30,608 nt of DNA, from the NCBI GenBank assembly GCA_937921735.1, contig CAKZTQ010000001.1, forward strand, positions 1-30,608. Direction: 5' to 3'. Numbering within the stretch: position 1 is the first letter of the stretch; the number at the start of each line of letters is the position of its first letter. Below, piece after piece: positions 1,275 to 19,173 of the stretch. The translations under genes were made by a program, and so were the position numbers. This DNA comes from an uncultured archaeon. GTDB taxonomy: Archaea > Hadarchaeota > Hadarchaeia > Hadarchaeales > Hadarchaeaceae. Below the pieces are notes generated by a model. It saw only the letters and a program-made list of their open reading frames with translations. It had not been told where the DNA came from and did no database searches.

Positions 1275-1370
1275 AAGTCTTTCCTTTTGGCCGCGACGCC
1301 GATCTAATCGACGTTGACCTCCTTGACCTCATGTTCCTCGTCCGGCAGCTGGCTATCGAGCATGTTTGAG

Positions 1371-1465
1371 TGGGCCCGGAGGGATTCGAACCCTCGACCG
1401 CCCGGTTATGAGCCTCGCCCAGCCTTTAGCCGTCGGGCGCTCTAACCAAGCTGAGCTACGGGCCC
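1371..1465 (-). tRNA. tRNA-Ile2 (CAT anticodon, agmatidine type) with a 20-nt intron at 30/31 (1414-1433)
   Basis: Spliced sequence: GGGCCCG TA GCTC AGCTTGGTTA GAGC G CCCGG CTCATAA CCGGG CGGTC GAGGG TTCGAAT CCCTC CGGGCCC A (75 nt, complete cloverleaf). The GGGCCC acceptor and A73 match archaeal tRNA-Ile2 rather than tRNA-Met. CCA is not encoded. Confidence 0.92.
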
Positions 1466-2542: not shown

Positions 2543-2719
2543 TGGCGCCGGGGAGAGGAATTTCGGCCGGCTCGCCGCCGGCTCTCGAACCTCTGACCAC
2601 CCGGTTGCAGCGCTCCGGCGCGTCGTTCGAGGCGATTGAGGTTCGCTCTTCATTCGCGCCGGGCTTAACAGCCGGGCACTCTACCTGCTGAGCTTTCGGG
2701 CCCTTATCGGTACCCCGGC
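2543..2719 (-). tRNA. tRNA-Asn (GTT) with three introns: 8/9 (2695-2711, 17 nt), 37/38 (2606-2665, 60 nt), 59/60 (2560-2583, 24 nt); CCA encoded
   Basis: Removing the three segments gives a 76-nt cloverleaf: GCCGGGG TA GCTC AGCAGGTA GAGT G CCCGG CTGTTAA CCGGG TGGTC AGAGG TTCGAGT CCTCT CCCCGGC G CCA. Each junction falls at the predicted cut sites of a bulge-helix-bulge motif. Confidence 0.9.
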
Positions 2720-2730
2720 ATTCCCCGGCA
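2713..2730 (-). repeat. Direct repeat TGCCGGGG, two copies 10 nt apart (leader copy and tRNA-Asn acceptor 5' strand)
   Basis: The minus strand reads TGCCGGGGAA TGCCGGGGTA. Confidence 0.9.
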
Positions 2731-2750
2731 ATACTACTTCATGTGCAGAG

Positions 2751-2763
2751 CTCTAAAAGCTTT
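2751..2763 (-). promoter_or_regulatory. Putative BRE/TATA of tRNA-Asn
   Basis: AAAGCTTTTAGAG on the minus strand. The same AAAGCTTT pattern precedes the BlaI-like gene (22531-22542). Spacing puts the start site near 2729-2731. Confidence 0.5.
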
Positions 2764-2773
2764 GGGCCGAGCT

Positions 2774-3844
2774 TCAGCCCTTCAACCCCAGCTTCTCGGG
2801 CAGGTACTCCTTGACCACGTAGTCTAGGCCGTACTTGGCGAAGGCCTGCTGCTCCGCCTTCTTGCCCAGCTCCAGCATCAGCTTGATCTCCGACTGCCAG
2901 AAGGGGGTGTTGTACCTCGGGTCCCTCTGCAGTTGCTTCAGCCGCGCGATGTCTAGCTCCCTGAGCTTGTCGGTGGGCAAGTCGTAGTTCTTTATGTCGC
3001 TCGCCGTCACGCCTATAAACTGCGCATCCGGCACCGCAAGCTCGTGGTTGATGTAGGCGAGCTTCGCGCTTCCCGAGATGATGACCATCGCGATGTGGAA
3101 GCCAAATGGATCCCCATCCGCGAAGATATAGACCGGCAGCCCTAGCTCCCCGTTCGCTCGTTTCAGGAAGCGTCTCGTCGCCCTCGCGGCCTGCCCCTTC
3201 AGCCCCACGATGAGCGCGTCGAACTTCTTCCAGGCCTCCTCCTGCACCAGCCTGTGGTACATGCCCATGGTCTCGACGGCTATCACGCGCTTGGCCCTGC
3301 ATTTAACGAACTCCACGTCGTCGATGGTCGGGGGGATGGTATAGCCGGCTCGACCCGCCTTCGTGGCGTCGATGGTGACGCCCTCCTCCCTCACCACCAG
3401 CTCGCCGTAGATGGCGGCGCCGTCCTCCTCCGGCATCAGGCCTAGGTCCTCTCGCTTTAGCGTGAAGGTCGCTTCTAGGTCCTCCACTATGGCGTCCGAC
3501 TCCCCTTGATCCCTGAACGGCCCAGCTTCCCAGCCCTCAGCGGTGTAGTACATCTCCCTCAGCGTCGCGAATTTATCGTTGGCGATGAGCTCCCTACAAA
3601 AGTCAGCCACGCACATGGTCTGCGCAAACTTCTTCACCTGCTTCATGCTGGCGGCCGAACGCACGCCGTACCTATCGCCGAGCACGAAGTAGCGATTTTT
3701 CTCGTCGTATCTTATGTTCGACGTGCTACGCGAGGGTATGCGCAGCTTGGGTGGGCGGGTCCTGAGGATGTCCTCGATGACCCCTCTCCCAAACTCCCGA
3801 AGCTTTTCCTCCGCCTTCGTCTTCCGCCCCTTTTCACGGACCAT
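2774..3844 (-). CDS. top6A: DNA topoisomerase VI subunit A
   Basis: TLREMYY with the catalytic Tyr, Toprim motifs VETMGM and DGDPFG, and C-terminal KAEQQA. Confidence 0.96.
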
Positions 3845-5405
3845 CCTTCCCGCCTCCGTCCCCGAGGCCTGCCACCTTCTTCAGTAGGGGTGTGATATCC
3901 GGCTCCTGCGTGCCCGCCAAGTTCGCGGCCTTCCTCGCTATGATCGGCAGGTATTTCTCGAATATCCCCGCGCGCTGCTGGCGCTCCCTTGCACGTATCT
4001 TGCGATATAGGTAACGCCTGAGCTCCCGCGCGACGTCCATGATCGCCTCCCTGATCTCCTTGAAGACCTCGGGCTCGTCGGCTATCGATTGCTTGCCCGC
4101 GGAGGTATAGGGCACGTAGGCCGAGACGACGTTCACGAAGAGGGTCAAGGGGGCGGTCGCGATGTCCACGCCGTACCTGCGCCAGTCTATGCTCTTCGCC
4201 GCGAGGGTTATCGCGCACCCACCTTGGTCGAACACGAGGGGCGCGCGGTTGGCGAACCTTATCAGGTCTAAGCCCTCGGCCTCGACCTCCTCTCCCCCCT
4301 CCTTCCTGCCCGCGCCGCCGCCGTAGGCTATGCCCGCCTCGACGATGAAGGGAATACCCCCGCGGTAGACCCTCGGCTGGCGGGTGACGGCGTAAACGAA
4401 CTCGGGGTTCAAGATCTGCCGCATGCCGTTTTCGATGTTCGCCGCCCCGATGGGCCTGAGGCCGCTCGTGGGAGGGGCCATGAACTTGATCTGCTTGAAG
4501 GCCGAGACTATCCTCTCCGCCTCTTCCCAGCTCAGCTCAGAGGGCTTCTTGTTGAGGTTCACTCCGGAGAGCCTCCTCGTCTCCTCCACCTTGCGCTTGG
4601 TCATCCTGGAGAGCTCCGAGATCAAGAAGCTCGCAACGCTCCTGCTCTTCGTCCTCTTGGCCAGCGCCAGCAAATCGTCTGCGGTTACCCCCCACGGGTG
4701 GGGGGACATGGGCTTCGGTCGCTCGGGCACCTCGTCGGTGGCGCGCTCGAAGACCGTCAGTTTGCCGTCGGGTTCTATAAAGGTGATCCTGGCGTGAGGA
4801 TTGGCGATCGCGGTCATGCGGAGGTAATTGTAGGGTCCATAGCGGGAGCGCTCGTACTTGACCTCCTTGAGCTCCAGCTCGACCTTAGTGCCCCGCCAGT
4901 TTCCCTTCAGCTTTTTGCCGTTCATCATCCTGCCCTCGTTTTTATCGACGTCGATCATGACGTCCGCGCACACTATCTCGCCGTTGCCCGTCGAGGTCAC
5001 CACATGCGTTGGCCTTCCGCTCGTTATCTGAGCGAACATCACAGCACCTGAGATTCCTATCCCCTGCTGTCCACGGCTTTGCATGCTGCGGTGTAGCTTG
5101 GTGCCGGCGAGCATCTTGCCGAAGACGTGTGGGATGAACTCCTCGGGTATGCCGCTCGCGTTGTCCTCTATCACCACTTTTAGGTGCTCGGGGTCCTCGT
5201 CCACCCTCTTTATCGCAACCGTGATGTCGGGCAGGATGTTCGCCTCCTCCGCGGCGTCGATCGCGTTGGTGACGCCCTCGTGCACCACCGTCGTCAAGGA
5301 CCTTATCTTACCGGTGTAGCCGAGCATGGCGGCGTTCTTCCTGAAGAACTCGCTGACGCTGTGCTCCCGAAAGTCCTTGAACAGCTCCTCCGCAAGGGTC
5401 CTCAT
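3834..5405 (-). CDS. top6B: DNA topoisomerase VI subunit B
   Basis: [13 protein letters not shown] motifs [15 protein letters not shown] and [10 protein letters not shown], plus RFANRAPL and PYTSAGKQ. Start placed at ATG 5405; the ORF extends to 5432. Confidence 0.96.
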
Positions 5406-5477
5406 CACACCCACATCCACCCAGTTCTTCACCCGAGTTTTAAATGGGTTTGGTGGAGAGGCTGCCGAAAGTGGCCA

Positions 5478-16956: not shown

Positions 16957-19173
16957 ATGAAGGGGGCCCAGGTCCGAGCCTCTGGACCCCTGTGGGTGGC
17001 TGAGATAGACTGCCATGGTTGCGAGGGACTTAGCACCCTCGCCGACAAAAGGTGCAGGGCGTGCGCGTTCGGACAGCTTGGGACGGAGGCCGTTGTCGAT
17101 CGGGTGGTGTTCAAACGAGGTTATCATCGCATCTACGATTCGCGCGAGCTCTCGAAGCTCGCGAGGCTTCTGACGGCGCTTAAGCTGCTGATAGGCGATC
17201 GCACCCTTTACTCTCCTCAAGAGAGCGGGAAGTGCAGGGATTGCGTGAGCAAGCGCCAAGGTAAGATGATCGAGTGTTGGTCGAGGGTGTTGACCAGCCC
17301 ACATGATCCATCGCCCTTCGACCGCTCGCTCGCCGAGCTGGAGGGGCTCAAGGGTGAGTGTGCTAAGTGCACGGAGCAGTACTTCCTGAAACTTCTAGAC
17401 AGCGCTAAAGCCATGCTGGAGAACTTCGAGGTGCTTCGCAAGCTCACGCCAGCGAACTACGACGAGGTCTTCGAAGCAAGGACCAAGCCGTTCTTCGTGG
17501 AGGGGGTCTGGCACCCGCCGAGGGGTGAGGTCCGTCTCTTGGACACCTATGAGCTTCCCGAGGGTAGGGGGAGGGTGCGGATCTACGAGCAGCTAGATCG
17601 CCCGGTGCCCTTCTACGACCTCGACTTGCCGGAGTTCAAGTGGCCTGCCGAGCGCGTGGAGCTCTTGGACGAGGCGTTCAGGCTGGAGGTGAAGGAGGCA
17701 CCAGGCCACGCGAGGTTCGCTCATCCCACGCGCATGGCCAGCTTCGCCGAGGATTGGTACGGCGCCCTGTTGCACATGGTGCGCGAGCGCTCGAACGTCA
17801 AGATCTCCTCGCTGGAGCTGAAGGAGCTCGCCAGGCGGATGGCAAACTGGCTCGCGTACCGCGTACTTGAGCCGTTGTCTTACGACGACCGCATCACGGA
17901 CATCTACATACCTGCGCCTCCCGAGCTGCAGCCCATATACGTCGTGCACGAGCGATGGGAGACCTGCGAGACAGGTATCTATTGGACCACCCCGGAGCTG
18001 CTCGGGATGTGCGAGACGCTGGCGAGCAGGCTAGGCTCAGCGTTCGACGAAGTAAGGCCTCAGCTCGACGTGGAAATCCCCGAGCTGGGCATGAGGTTGT
18101 TCATGAGCCGCTATCCCGCTGTTTGGCCGAGGAGCGCCTCCATAGCGGTGAGAAAGCGCCGCCGTCACGCTTGGACACAACCGCTGTTTATAGCGAGAGG
18201 CACCCTCACGCCTCTCGCCAGCTCGCTTTTGGGCAGCGTCGTCAGGATGGGGGCCTCGGCGTTCATCATAGGCGAGAAGGGCTCCGCCAAGACGAGCATG
18301 GTGGAGACCCTCATCCCAGAGATGGGCCCGCACCACCGCATCGTCTGCTATCAGGACACGGAGGAGCTCCACGTGGAGGAGTTCATAGCCCACGGCTACA
18401 AGCTGGAGAACGTCCGCATCGCGAACCCGGAGCACCTGCAGAGACAGATAGACGCTTTCTTGCGCGGTGGCGAGGCATACTGGCTCATCACCGAGGTTAG
18501 GTCGGTGGAAGCGGTGAGGGCGGCCTTGGGCGCAGCCGCCCGTCAAGGGAGCCAACCGCTGGTCACGAGCTTCCACGTCAAGACCAAGCGGGAGATGTAC
18601 GATCTCATATGTCACCTCATGGGGCTGAACGAGGCGGCTTACAAGTACGTCGACTTCGTCGTCGGCACCGCTCGCTTTTCCACACCTACTGGTTCGATAC
18701 GCAGGGTGGTCGAGGTCGCGGAGGTTTTGAAGGATTGGGAGGGAAGACCGACCTACGCGGAGCTTTTCCTCGACGATCGAAAGCGAGACGTTCTAACGCC
18801 CGCGAACTTCCTGAAAGGCGATGAGGCGATGCTGGAGCGATTGAACTCTTTCGATCTCTCGAGCGTCGACCTAGCCGAGGCTTTAAAGCGCGTGGAGCTG
18901 ATTCCGCCGGAGGAAGGGGGTAGCCACTACATCCCCGCGGCGTGCGAGAGGCTGGCGGTGGAGGTGGAGGATTTTCTGGCCGAGGTGATCGCTGAGGCGA
19001 TGATGAAGTCCGACCTGTTAATGCTCGCCAGGCGCAAAGGCGATGAAAGTTATTTGGAATTGCCGTTCGTCAGCGCCGCCTACAGCGCGTACTTTGCCTT
19101 GTTGAAGAGGCATGAGAGCCCCGCGAGGGCTTTGGAGGAATGGCGGACTTGGCTGAGGGTTCGTTCGAGCTGA
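16957..19173 (+). CDS. Divergent VirB11/TadA/GspE-like secretion or pilus ATPase with a Cys-rich N-terminus
   Basis: LEPLSYDDRITDI, SIAVRK, Walker A GEKGSAKT, Asp box QDTEEL, Walker B LITEVR, His box TSFH and RRVVEVAEV. Four CxxC pairs in the N-terminal 135 aa. Confidence 0.82.
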   Translation: MKGAQVRASGPLWVAEIDCHGCEGLSTLADKRCRACAFGQLGTEAVVDRVVFKRGYHRIYDSRELSKLARLLTALKLLIGDRTLYSPQESGKCRDCVSKRQGKMIECWSRVLTSPHDPSPFDRSLAELEGLKGECAKCTEQYFLKLLDSAKAMLENFEVLRKLTPANYDEVFEARTKPFFVEGVWHPPRGEVRLLDTYELPEGRGRVRIYEQLDRPVPFYDLDLPEFKWPAERVELLDEAFRLEVKEAPGHARFAHPTRMASFAEDWYGALLHMVRERSNVKISSLELKELARRMANWLAYRVLEPLSYDDRITDIYIPAPPELQPIYVVHERWETCETGIYWTTPELLGMCETLASRLGSAFDEVRPQLDVEIPELGMRLFMSRYPAVWPRSASIAVRKRRRHAWTQPLFIARGTLTPLASSLLGSVVRMGASAFIIGEKGSAKTSMVETLIPEMGPHHRIVCYQDTEELHVEEFIAHGYKLENVRIANPEHLQRQIDAFLRGGEAYWLITEVRSVEAVRAALGAAARQGSQPLVTSFHVKTKREMYDLICHLMGLNEAAYKYVDFVVGTARFSTPTGSIRRVVEVAEVLKDWEGRPTYAELFLDDRKRDVLTPANFLKGDEAMLERLNSFDLSSVDLAEALKRVELIPPEEGGSHYIPAACERLAVEVEDFLAEVIAEAMMKSDLLMLARRKGDESYLELPFVSAAYSAYFALLKRHESPARALEEWRTWLRVRSS

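What the first reader, a model, noticed from the sequence alone, without database searches (positions are those of the whole stretch)
2543..2719. tRNA-Asn gene split by three BHB introns, including one at position 8/9
A 177-nt gene gives a 76-nt tRNA. Intron 1 (17 nt) folds GC-CGGG-[GT^A]-CC-GATAAG-GG-CCCG-[AA^A]-GC and joins U8 to A9. Intron 2 (60 nt, 37/38) has central helix CTGT/GCTG with one U-U mismatch and a long inner stem. Intron 3 (24 nt, 59/60) is a complete BHB: AGAGG-TTCG-[AG^A]-GCCGGC-GGCGA-GCCGGC-CGAA-[AT^T]-CCTCT. All six cuts follow the BHB rule and regenerate an intact cloverleaf. Triple-intron tRNAs are rare and known mainly from Thermoproteales. I do not recall 8/9 as a described site, though I cannot search to confirm this. 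Standard annotation probably misses or mis-calls this gene.
Basis: partly seen in the sequence, partly recalled or inferred. Interest (0 to 1): 0.88.

Follow-up and report, generated by a model that had tools for sequence, protein, structure and literature searches.

The report
Three-intron asparagine tRNA gene, confirmed
This is a real asparagine tRNA gene broken by three removable inserts in a hot-spring archaeon, and the insert near the gene's start always comes with a conserved upstream copy of the tRNA's first seven letters, which may help the cell cut that insert out.

Summary
On the minus strand, 2719 to 2543, a 177-nt gene splits into exons of 8, 29, 22 and 17 nt and introns of 17 (8/9), 60 (37/38) and 24 nt (59/60). 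The script-spliced 76 nt fold as a clean tRNA-Asn(GUU). All six cuts obey the bulge-helix-bulge (BHB) rule. ARAGORN and the Rfam tRNA model miss the gene. No other tRNA-Asn was found in this 83%-complete genome.

The organism is a Hadarchaeota (Hadesarchaea) archaeon, not Thermoproteales. It has one M. jannaschii-like 182-aa EndA, plus RtcB and RNase P RNA.

Orthologues in 39 of 41 relatives carry subsets of four intron sites: 8/9 in 17 of 39, 22/23 in 10, 37/38 in 39, 59/60 in 9. Two species carry all four.

New points:
- All 23 genes with the 8/9 intron have a copy of the acceptor 5' strand 1-4 nt upstream of G1. Folding suggests it holds the 3' acceptor strand so the real 5' strand can build the BHB.
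- The 37/38 intron holds an order-wide K-turn (box C/D-like) module and an 8-9-nt antisense to the gene's own T arm.

Multi-intron tRNAs are known, and tRNA gene disruption in Hadesarchaea is already in print. I could not establish whether 8/9 is a new site. No RNA data were available.

The parts
2751..2759 (-). TATA-like promoter element (CTTTTAGAG). It starts about 30 nt upstream of the leader copy, so transcription probably begins at or near the leader copy.
   Evidence: Sequence read. Similar T/A-rich boxes stand 27-30 nt before the leader copy in orthologues, and 30-35 nt before G1 in genes without a copy (leaders printed, distances read by eye). The -26 rule for archaeal TATA boxes is recalled, not tested.
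2723..2729 (-). Leader copy of the acceptor 5' strand (GCCGGGG), followed by the spacer AAT (2722-2720). Proposed surrogate partner and tether for the 3' acceptor strand.
   Evidence: present in 23 of 23 genes with the 8/9 intron. Folding.
2712..2719 (-). Exon 1, tRNA positions 1-8
2695..2711 (-). Intron 1, 17 nt, between positions 8 and 9; full hBHBh' motif
2666..2694 (-). Exon 2, positions 9-37 (D arm, anticodon stem 5' strand, anticodon GTT)
2606..2665 (-). Intron 2, 60 nt, canonical 37/38 site; BHB with one U-U in the central helix, then a covarying stem, a K-turn and a T-arm antisense
2647..2653 (-). Box C-like motif AUGAAGA inside intron 2
   Evidence: ATGA[AT]GA in 37 of 39 orthologues; alignment A1
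2638..2645 (-). Antisense element CGAACCUC inside intron 2, complementary to T-arm positions 50-57 of the same gene
   Evidence: CGA[AG]CCTC in 38 of 39; covaries with position 49
2623..2626 (-). Box D-like ACGA next to the 3' strand of the intron-2 stem (K-turn partner)
   Evidence: N[CT]GA[CT] in 34 of 39; stem covariation
2584..2605 (-). Exon 3, positions 38-59 (includes the T-arm target GAGGUUCG at 2593-2586)
2560..2583 (-). Intron 3, 24 nt, between positions 59 and 60; full hBHBh' motif
2543..2559 (-). Exon 4, positions 60-76, with encoded CCA (2545-2543); a T run follows at 2538-2535

Best explanation
This is the working, and apparently only, tRNA-Asn(GUU) gene of a Hadarchaeota archaeon. 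Its precursor carries three BHB introns, at 8/9, 37/38 and 59/60. The cell's single EndA (182 aa, M. jannaschii-like, probably a homotetramer) cuts them out, RtcB joins the exons, and RNase P trims the 5' end. SHOWN: the gene structure; the BHB geometry; conservation and compensatory change of the same introns in relatives; and the presence of the enzymes. INFERRED (about 0.55): the 8/9 intron needs exon positions 1-6 to pair with the intron and with G10-C11, so those positions cannot also sit in the acceptor stem. A conserved leader copy of the acceptor 5' strand pairs with the 3' acceptor strand instead. This makes the BHB state affordable and keeps the 8-nt exon tethered to the tRNA body during cutting and joining. 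After ligation the true strand displaces the copy, and RNase P removes the leader. INFERRED (about 0.3): the 37/38 intron is also a cis-acting box C/D-like module. It has a K-turn plus an 8-9-nt antisense to the T arm and would direct a ribose methylation in the T arm, in the way the tRNA-Trp intron does elsewhere. The 0.85 confidence is for the core claim only: a real gene with three spliced BHB introns.
For: Structure and cloverleaf. BHB measures and nulls.

Only tRNA-Asn: none of the 34 ARAGORN calls in intron mode is Asn. A BLAST of the spliced form and an anticodon-arm regex find only this locus. Apart from G022, whose two matched pieces lie in one gene, each relative with a match has a single match.

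Orthologues: 39 of 41 genomes match and 39 of 39 loci parse. Exon junctions are contiguous in genes lacking a given intron.

8/9 intron: central helix 4/4 in 16 of 17, outer 2 bp in 17 of 17, inner at least 2 bp in 17 of 17, with inner helices CC/GG, CTGC/GCAG, CCGC/GCGG and CCACC/GGTGG. Phylum-wide it occurs in 23 of 66 genomes, with 0 hits to the reversed control pattern.

Enzymes in the own genome: EndA, RtcB, RNase P RNA.

Leader copy: 17 of 17 plus 6 of 6 new genes. Among the 22 genes without the intron, only 2 have an exact copy and 2 have a 6/7 match further upstream. Variants are C-to-U, which keeps a G-U pair, or lie at the last two positions.

Folding: without the leader the BHB-1 state costs +4.0 to +12.5 kcal/mol at 37 C in 17 of 17. 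With the copy the median is -1.4 or +1.1 kcal/mol at 37 C (3-nt or 10-nt trailer) and -2.3 or -0.9 at 70 C. The probability of the BHB-1 helix is 0.00 without the leader in 17 of 17, against a mean of 0.41 with the native leader and 0.11 with a shuffled one.

Intron 2: the stem has 7 of 8 pairs changed on both sides, 95% of all cells in the tested structure are paired, and 0 of 500 shuffles reach this. Motif counts and the G49/C link (13 of 16 against 0 of 23) are. Fibrillarin is present.
Against: No RNA evidence of any kind. No RNA holder was listed, and the contigs laid showed no joints.

The leader model rests on thermodynamic prediction. The two states come out near-isoenergetic, and the BHB state is favoured in only 6 to 13 of 17 genes depending on trailer length and temperature. 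The tool's own minimum-energy fold, with a 12-nt leader and a 6-nt trailer, shows the ordinary acceptor stem. Imperfect copies (L017, L022, L034) gain little. The transcription start is only guessed, and if it lies inside the copy the tether is shorter. The copy and the intron are 1-4 nt apart, so their co-occurrence could reflect joint inheritance or allele transfer. The acceptor stem is invariant among the 23 genes, so no covariation test of copy against 3' strand is possible. Co-transcriptional folding could form BHB-1 before the 3' strand exists.

For intron 2: there is no recognisable C'/D' pair. Three short introns (L026, L032, L033) lack the 3' box, as do L008 and L025 by the regex. The position opposite A49 is A, not U, in 23 of 23. 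Trm56 is present, so Cm56 needs no guide.
Confidence: 0.85

Rival explanations
1. The leader copy is a neutral by-product, for example a small tandem duplication made when the 8/9 intron arose. It travels with the intron only because the two are adjacent. BHB-1 forms co-transcriptionally, or with protein help, without it.
For: The copy and the intron are 1-4 nt apart. Intron content of tRNA-Asn is patchy even within genera: g7, g8, g9, g10 and g11 each hold genes with and without the 8/9 intron. That pattern fits allele replacement carrying both features together. The modelled energy difference with the copy is near zero rather than strongly favourable, and one minimum-energy fold shows the normal acceptor stem. 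L032 and L033 keep the copy without the intron.
Against: The 7-mer is kept in 23 of 23 genes across three families, exact in 17, while the spacer (1-4 nt, variable sequence) and the leader upstream of the copy are not conserved. The changes seen keep pairing or lie at the helix end. Without the copy the BHB state is disfavoured in 17 of 17. After cleavage an 8-nt exon held by 2 bp would be easily lost; this last point is inference.
Confidence: 0.3
2. The upstream copy is the true exon 1. The intron is then 27-31 nt long and contains the second copy, and the mature tRNA starts at the first copy.
For: The TATA-like box stands at the usual distance from the first copy rather than from G1 (read by eye). 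The central helix and outer helix of a BHB can be drawn with the first copy as well.
Against: Under this model position 8 would be A in 13, G in 6 and U in 4 of 23 genes. The second copy is exactly GCCGGGGT in all 23, whereas the first copy is imperfect in 6 of 23. Genes without the intron read GCCGGGGT followed by A/G-GC directly.
Confidence: 0.04
3. The locus is a decaying tRNA pseudogene with insertions that are not spliced out.
For: Standard finders do not call it. No RNA data exist.
Against: It is the only tRNA-Asn detected here, and no relative with a match has a second tRNA-Asn locus. Exons are nearly invariant across 39 species, while introns vary with compensatory changes. A hot-spring strain about 96% identical differs inside the gene only at three intron-2 positions.
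Confidence: 0.03
4. The conserved core of the 37/38 intron is not a methylation guide. It is a protein-binding or folding element: an L7Ae-bound K-turn that stiffens the BHB, with an antisense that holds the T arm open for another enzyme or orders the processing steps.
For: There are no C'/D' boxes. The loop between the boxes is only about 20-25 nt. The antisense sits next to box C, where a D' ruler would be needed. Five of 39 genes lack the 3' box yet keep box C and the antisense. Rfam finds no family for the intron.
Against: The 12-nt stretch after box C pairs with the target at its positions 4-11 (3-11 when position 49 is G). That is the usual geometry of an archaeal D' guide; this rule is recalled, not tested. 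Fibrillarin is present. The genome's tRNA-Trp intron shows the classic guide arrangement.
Confidence: 0.35

Closest known systems
Three-intron tRNA genes of Thermoproteales (for example P. calidifontis tRNA-Glu(UUC) and P. islandicum tRNA-Pro(UGG); passages of PMC4390854 and PMC4090602)
   Same: One canonical 37/38 intron plus two non-canonical BHB introns in a single gene. [quoted passage not shown]
   Different: The host is Hadarchaeota. It has a single EndA that is colinear with the M. jannaschii homotetramer type and lacks the crenarchaeal loop insertion seen in the A. pernix alignment. One intron lies between positions 8 and 9 and is accompanied by a conserved leader copy of the acceptor strand.
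tRNA gene disruption in Hadesarchaea noted by Kaneta et al. [quoted passage not shown]
   Same: [quoted passage not shown]
   Different: That paper gives a summary figure for one genome. In the text I could read, no gene, intron site, leader feature or intron content is described. It attributes the breadth to an 'L3' loop. I saw no extra residues relative to M. jannaschii EndA in the printed alignment, but I could not see how L3 is defined.
[quoted passage not shown]
   Same: Many non-canonical BHB introns, several per gene, missed by standard annotation and detectable by comparison with compact relatives.
   Different: A different phylum and a different EndA type. Up to five introns per gene are reported there, against three here and four in two relatives. 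Intron positions are listed only in supplements that I could not open.
Box C/D guide in the tRNA-Trp intron of Euryarchaeota (title seen in the reference list of PMC7668247; the mechanism is recalled)
   Same: A roughly 60-nt 37/38 intron with a box C-like motif, a terminal stem and a K-turn, and an antisense to the host pre-tRNA. The own genome also has the tRNA-Trp version.
   Different: The host is tRNA-Asn and the antisense targets the T arm rather than the anticodon arm. There is only one antisense, no recognisable C'/D' pair, and box D reads ACGA rather than CUGA.
Complementary leaders of split tRNA halves in Nanoarchaeum equitans (passages of PMC4390854 and PMC3218864)
   Same: Non-tRNA flanking sequence pairs so that a BHB can form and the pieces stay together for joining.
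   Different: Here the gene is in one piece. The leader pairs with the tRNA's own 3' acceptor strand by mimicking the 5' strand, not with a second transcript.

Membership tests
Archaeal BHB (EndA-spliced) tRNA intron | [quoted passage not shown] | tested here: met
   Intron 1: 4/4, bulges GUA and AAA. Intron 3: 4/4, bulges AGA and AUU. Intron 2: 3/4 with one U-U, bulges UAA and CAA. The definition is as quoted in the preprint passages.
Archaeal BHB (EndA-spliced) tRNA intron | Flanking helices h and h' of at least 2 bp | tested here: met
   (h, h') = (2, 2), (7, 2) and (5, 6) for introns 1, 2 and 3.
Archaeal BHB (EndA-spliced) tRNA intron | Removal restores a canonical cloverleaf | tested here: met
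   ARAGORN calls the script-spliced 76 nt tRNA-Asn(gtt). The junctions match genes of relatives that lack the insert.
Archaeal BHB (EndA-spliced) tRNA intron | Splicing endonuclease and RtcB ligase encoded by the host | tested here: met
   EndA at G000:C32:72420-72965. RtcB at C15:84241-85548.
Archaeal BHB (EndA-spliced) tRNA intron | Spliced RNA or excised intron observed | not testable with these tools
   No RNA holder was listed. The runs laid were contigs and showed no joints.
Multiple-intron tRNA gene (three or more) | Three separate inserts relative to compact orthologues of the same anticodon | tested here: met
   11 of 39 orthologues carry only the 37/38 insert. Others carry each extra insert alone or in combination.
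Homotetrameric (alpha4) EndA | A single catalytic-type subunit of about 180 aa, with no second subunit or fused repeat | tested here: met
   One 182-aa ORF with both Pfam domains. No paralogue by tblastn. In 39 of the 41 genomes searched there is a match; 38 have a single strong hit each and G017 has two. The ORF is colinear with 1a79 over residues 17-180. The genome is 83% complete, and the oligomeric state cannot be tested here.
Box C/D guide RNA carried in a tRNA intron | Box C (RUGAUGA) and box D (CUGA) brought together by a terminal stem to form a K-turn | tested here: inconclusive
   AUGA(A/U)GA in 37 of 39 and N(C/U)GA in 34 of 39. The stem covaries. The tandem G-A pairs can be drawn, but box D is mostly ACGA, and 5 of 39 genes lack a 3' box.
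Box C/D guide RNA carried in a tRNA intron | Internal C'/D' pair | tested here: not met
   Only about 20-25 nt lie between the boxes, and no conserved D' or C' is seen in alignment A1.
Box C/D guide RNA carried in a tRNA intron | Antisense of about 10 nt with the target at the fifth pair from box D or D' | tested here: inconclusive
   An 8-9-bp antisense to T-arm positions 49/50-57 fills positions 3/4-11 of the 12 nt after box C. That would point to A51, but there is no D' box to measure from. The rule is recalled.

The most novel reading that the evidence does not exclude
A tRNA precursor carries its own cis-acting helper. A conserved leader copy of the acceptor 5' strand pairs with the 3' acceptor strand. 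The real 5' strand is then free to build a strict BHB for an intron at the acceptor/D-arm junction, and the 8-nt exon stays tethered until RtcB has joined it. This would explain how a lineage with a plain M. jannaschii-like EndA tolerates an intron at a place where the tRNA fold itself forbids the splicing motif. It would also be a new class of processing signal in pre-tRNA leaders.
Probability: 0.45. Interest if true: 0.7.

Novelty: new variant of a known kind. Interest (0 to 1): 0.55.

Why it matters
Non-canonical and multiple tRNA introns are usually tied to endonucleases with broadened specificity. Here a lineage with a single, unembellished EndA keeps up to four introns in an essential single-copy tRNA gene. 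Each has a near-perfect BHB, and at least one seems to rely on extra RNA in the leader to make that motif possible. If the leader copy works as proposed, where an intron can persist depends not only on the enzyme but also on cheap cis-RNA adaptations of the precursor. That bears on the open question of why archaeal tRNA introns sit where they do. The case also gives a compact test system of one enzyme, one ligase and one roughly 190-nt RNA. In practice, tRNA-Asn and probably other tRNAs will be missing from automatic annotations of Hadarchaeota genomes, which will make them look less complete than they are.

Tried and rejected
RNA evidence. No RNA holder was listed. Two runs labelled metatranscriptomic (X4, X5) were laid together with X1 and X2. 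All are contigs with even cover across genes and spacers, and none shows a joint. This says nothing for or against splicing.

Earlier findings.

Rfam. At a permissive threshold no family matches any intron. The only hit of note is a sub-threshold snoU82P-like match upstream of the gene.

Intron 2 as a replacement for Trm56, as in Pyrobaculum: rejected. Trm56 is present in this genome and in 26 of the 41 genomes searched (own included), while the element is in 38-39 of 39 genes.

Permuted or split tRNA reading of the upstream repeat: rejected. The repeat has the sense of the 5' strand and is not a 3' half.

Target-site duplication: rejected. The two copies flank only a 1-4-nt spacer, not the intron.

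First copy as exon 1: rejected.

Second tRNA-Asn: none found.

Other tRNA genes of this genome with a leader copy: a scan for tandem 7-mers followed by T and a downstream complement gave 27 candidates, and only this gene is a tRNA.

Trans targets of the antisense: the 8-mer occurs 90 times in the genome, against about 32 expected by chance. Among tRNAs I saw it only in tRNA-Asn and a tRNA-Ile, so this is not informative.

The 'L3' loop named by Kaneta et al.: not visible to me in the gap-free alignment to 1a79.

First folding result. One search looked stronger than it is. With a longer trailer the acceptor-stem state wins in the tool's minimum-energy fold, so I repeated the comparison with constrained ensembles and report both.

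Prior description of an 8/9 intron. Searches and the passages read in PMC4090602, PMC4033280, PMC3218864, PMC8450103, PMC2237900 and PMC4390854 name no such site. Searches found no paper on a leader that mimics the acceptor strand. [quoted passage not shown] The site may therefore be in print.
Full report
WHAT IS THERE. The finding lies on the minus strand, 2719 down to 2543. It sits in the spacer between a 324-aa ORF on the plus strand, which ends at 2526, and a 356-aa ORF on the minus strand, which ends at 2774. ARAGORN calls the joined 76 nt tRNA-Asn(gtt) with a regular cloverleaf, G73 and an encoded CCA. On the unspliced DNA, ARAGORN and the Rfam tRNA model find nothing here, and the genome-wide Rfam and ARAGORN runs also miss it. 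tRNAscan-SE could not be run.

THE SPLICING MOTIFS. [quoted passage not shown]
- Intron 1 (8/9): central helix 4/4, outer helix 2 bp (G1-C11 and C2-G10, the most that is possible) and inner helix 2 bp.
- Intron 2 (37/38): 3/4 with one U-U, outer helix 7 bp.
- Intron 3 (59/60): 4/4, outer 5 bp and inner 6 bp.

With the boundaries fixed, shuffled introns reach these classes in 6, 543 and 152 of 20000 trials. The loose motif is frequent by chance, about 0.025 sites per nt of the window. The strength of the case therefore lies in three motifs coinciding with the only cuts that restore a tRNA, and in the comparative data.

THE ORGANISM AND ITS ENZYMES. The window is contig 1 of a 1.06-Mb assembly in 60 contigs, 83% complete, 57% G+C. 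The closest relatives of its EndA are public records titled Hadesarchaea, Hadarchaeota or Hadarchaeum. The host is therefore not one of the Thermoproteales.

The genome has one EndA gene of 182 aa carrying both Pfam domains, and tblastn finds no paralogue. A match was found in 39 of the 41 genomes searched, own genome included. 38 of them have one strong hit each and G017 has two; G010 has only a weak hit, and G001 and G040 have none. The protein's best solved relatives are the M. kandleri, ARMAN-2 and M. jannaschii enzymes. It aligns with the M. jannaschii homotetramer over residues 17-180 at nearly the same length, and without the N-terminal insertion seen in the A. pernix alignment.

RtcB, fibrillarin, Trm56 and RNase P RNA are all present.

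Kaneta et al. [quoted passage not shown] They also say the alpha4 type was previously thought to cut only strict BHB motifs.

IS IT THE ONLY tRNA-Asn? ARAGORN in intron mode tRNAs in the genome and none is Asn. A BLAST of the spliced form hits only the three larger exons of this gene (the 8-nt exon 1 gives no hit) plus short chance matches. A search for GUU anticodon arms with or without an intron finds only this locus as a tRNA. Seventeen percent of the genome is missing, so this is not proof. In the relatives each genome with a match has one locus; the two pieces in G022 belong to one gene.

RELATIVES. The 177 nt match 39 of 41 genomes of the same order. There was no match in G004 (87% complete) or G005 (79% complete). 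All 39 loci parse into the same exons.

Introns occur at four sites:
- 8/9 in 17 of 39
- 22/23 in the D arm in 10 of 39
- 37/38 in 39 of 39
- 59/60 in 9 of 39

By number of introns per gene:
- one gene (L022, genome G022) has all four
- six genes have three
- 21 genes have two
- 11 genes have only the canonical intron

Genes that lack an insert read straight through the junction that splicing would make in ours. This is motif-free evidence for the exon boundaries.

The 8/9 intron keeps a 4/4 central helix in 16 of 17 genes and an inner helix of 2-5 bp in all 17. The sequence of that inner helix changes in a compensatory way. In seven genes the intron starts with G or T, so only the 8/9 cut regenerates U8-A9 and the one-base ambiguity present in our gene disappears.

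A pattern search over all 66 genomes held for the phylum finds the 8/9 intron in 23, with no hit to the reversed control. By eye, one of the six new genes has four introns (L113, same genus as G022) and two have three.

Intron content differs within genera (g7, g8, g9, g10, g11). This points to repeated loss or to exchange of alleles.

A hot-spring strain about 96% identical keeps the gene and differs inside it only at three positions of intron 2.

THE LEADER COPY. Every gene with the 8/9 intron has a second GCCGGGG-like heptamer 1-4 nt upstream of G1.
- 17 of 17 in the first set: 14 can form 7 of 7 pairs with the 3' acceptor strand, two form 6 and one forms 5.
- 6 of 6 in the new set.
- The heptamer is exact in 17 of the 23.
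- Variants are C3-to-U, which keeps a G-U pair, or changes at the last one or two positions.
- Among the 22 genes without the intron, two have an exact copy (L032 and L033, one genus), two have a 6/7 match 6 or 13 nt away, and 18 have 5/7 or less.

The spacer and the leader upstream of the copy are not conserved. In the own genome no other tRNA shows such a repeat.

The copy is not the real exon.

HOW THE COPY MAY WORK (inference). BHB-1 needs positions 3-6 to pair with the intron and positions 1-2 to pair with G10-C11. The same bases form the G+C-rich acceptor stem. In constrained ensemble calculations the BHB-1 state costs +4.0 to +12.5 kcal/mol at 37 C, and +3.0 to +8.1 (3-nt trailer) or +2.0 to +7.9 (10-nt trailer) at 70 C, relative to the acceptor-stem state when the RNA starts at G1. 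It is favoured in 0 of 17 genes.

With the leader copy paired to positions 66-72, the medians are:

| Temperature | 3-nt trailer | 10-nt trailer |
|---|---|---|
| 37 C | -1.4 kcal/mol | +1.1 kcal/mol |
| 70 C | -2.3 kcal/mol | -0.9 kcal/mol |

The BHB state is then favoured in 13, 6, 11 and 10 of 17 genes (37 C with 3-nt and 10-nt trailer, then 70 C with 3-nt and 10-nt trailer).

Unconstrained base-pair probabilities tell the same story. The BHB-1 helix has a probability of 0.00 without the leader in 17 of 17. Its mean is 0.41 with the native 12-nt leader and 0.11 with shuffled leaders at 37 C.

The two states are thus about equal in energy, not one-sided. The tool's own minimum-energy fold with a longer trailer shows the ordinary acceptor stem, and the three imperfect copies help little.

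A second role follows from the geometry. After both cuts the 8-nt exon would hang on by 2 bp, but through the leader copy it stays bound to the tRNA body by up to 7 bp until RtcB joins it. The true strand can then displace the copy, and RNase P, whose RNA is present, can remove the leader.

In M. kandleri, end trimming precedes intron removal (PMC3695527, passages). Here the copy would force the opposite order for intron 1.

The TATA-like box starts about 30 nt before the copy (by eye), so the transcript probably begins at or close to it. This is a guess, and a start inside the copy would weaken the model.

The main rival is that copy and intron are merely inherited together.

THE 37/38 INTRON. 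It is present in all 39 genes. It is 55-64 nt long in 36 of them and 42 nt in the three genes L026, L032 and L033.

Beyond the BHB it has an 8-bp stem. Seven of its eight pairs change on both sides, 95% of all cells in the tested structure are paired, and no shuffle of 500 reaches this. At the top of the stem stand AUGA(A/U)GA on the 5' side (37 of 39) and N(C/U)GA on the 3' side (34 of 39). Together these can form a K-turn: a three-base bulge followed by tandem G-A pairs. The K-turn geometry is recalled, not tested.

One base after box C comes CGA(A/G)CCUC (38 of 39). This is the exact complement of T-arm positions 50-57 of the same tRNA. The A/G variant keeps a G-U pair with U54. The next base is C in 13 of the 16 genes with G49, and in 0 of the 23 genes with A49. 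The element therefore tracks its own T arm.

This resembles the box C/D guide in the tRNA-Trp intron (reference title seen; mechanism recalled), and this genome also has that tRNA-Trp intron. But there is no C'/D' pair, and box D is mostly ACGA. The base opposite A49 is A rather than U. The usual ruler, applied to a 12-nt spacer, would point to A51, a site I know no precedent for. Trm56 is present, so C56 needs no guide. Um at position 54 is discussed for thermophilic archaea (PMC7668247, section read). I hold the guide reading at about 0.3 and a structural or protein-binding reading at about 0.35.

COMPARISON WITH WHAT IS KNOWN. Reviews give three as the maximum number of introns in an archaeal tRNA gene and place such genes mainly in Thermoproteales (PMC4033280, PMC8450103, PMC4390854, passages). 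A 2026 preprint reports up to five in Asgard archaea and shows that tRNAscan-SE misses about 30% of such inserts. The gene is thus a new member of a known kind, in a lineage for which only a summary statement exists.

What I did not find in print is an intron between positions 8 and 9 or a leader that mimics the acceptor strand. The position catalogues were out of reach (supplements closed), so the novelty of the 8/9 site stays open.

VERDICT. The core claim, a real and essential tRNA-Asn gene with three spliced BHB introns, stands at 0.85. The leader-copy helper is the most interesting part: the association is solid at 23 of 23, but the mechanism is inferred, at about 0.45-0.55. Overall interest 0.55.

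Noticed in passing
window 1370-1465 (-): A tRNA with anticodon CAT carries a 20-nt intron in the anticodon stem (about 30/31) with a full BHB: central helix 4/4, outer 3 bp, inner 5 bp. Default ARAGORN miscalls it tRNA-Pyl(cta). In intron mode it calls tRNA-Met.
   Followed up: partly
L022 (G022:C17, about 18634-18843) and L113 (G043:C63, from 487): Two species of one genus carry tRNA-Asn genes with four introns (8/9, 22/23, 37/38, 59/60). L022 was parsed and BHB-scored by script. L113 was read by eye.
   Followed up: partly
L004, L018, L021, L022, L023, L024, L027, L030, L031, L035: A fourth intron site in tRNA-Asn lies in the D arm at 22/23. The intron is 28-31 nt, with a conserved 3' part (CUUCGCCUAA-like) and central helix 3-4 of 4.
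   Followed up: partly
L032 (G028) and L033 (G031): These two genes have the exact leader copy of the acceptor strand but no 8/9 intron. A third species of the genus (L026) has neither. This looks like intron loss with the copy left behind.
   Followed up: no
G000:C16:78626-78762 (-): tRNA-Trp has a 60-nt 37/38 intron with AUGAUGA and CUGA boxes and an antisense to its own anticodon region. This is the classic euryarchaeal arrangement (read by eye).
   Followed up: no
G000:C11:105908-106015 (+): A 108-nt tRNA-like gene was missed by ARAGORN and scores below the Rfam threshold (E 0.036). By eye it is a tRNA-Gly(GCC) with two inserts.
   Followed up: no
Own genome and 40 relatives: Trm56 was not found in 15 of the 41 genomes searched (own genome included, where it is present). 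These include all searched members of three genera: g7 0 of 3, g8 0 of 3, g10 0 of 2, with completeness 85-95%. This recalls the Pyrobaculum case, where a guide RNA makes Cm56.
   Followed up: no
window 2737-2789 (-): A sub-threshold match to a C/D snoRNA family (snoU82P, 19.7 bits against a cut-off of 42, E 0.0058) lies just upstream of the tRNA gene and overlaps its TATA-like box. It is probably chance.
   Followed up: no
own genome, ARAGORN list: No tRNA was called for Asn, Asp, Gln, Lys, Thr or Tyr. Some are probably on missing contigs. Others may be hidden by multiple introns, as tRNA-Asn is.
   Followed up: no
G000:C3:928-1133: A cluster of short direct repeats (units like CTTGCTGTA) turned up in the scan for tandem heptamers.
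   Followed up: no
window 2774-5432 (-): The two ORFs upstream of the tRNA gene on the same strand (356 and 532 aa) look like the A and B subunits of topoisomerase VI. This was judged by eye from the translations and not tested against any library.
   Followed up: no
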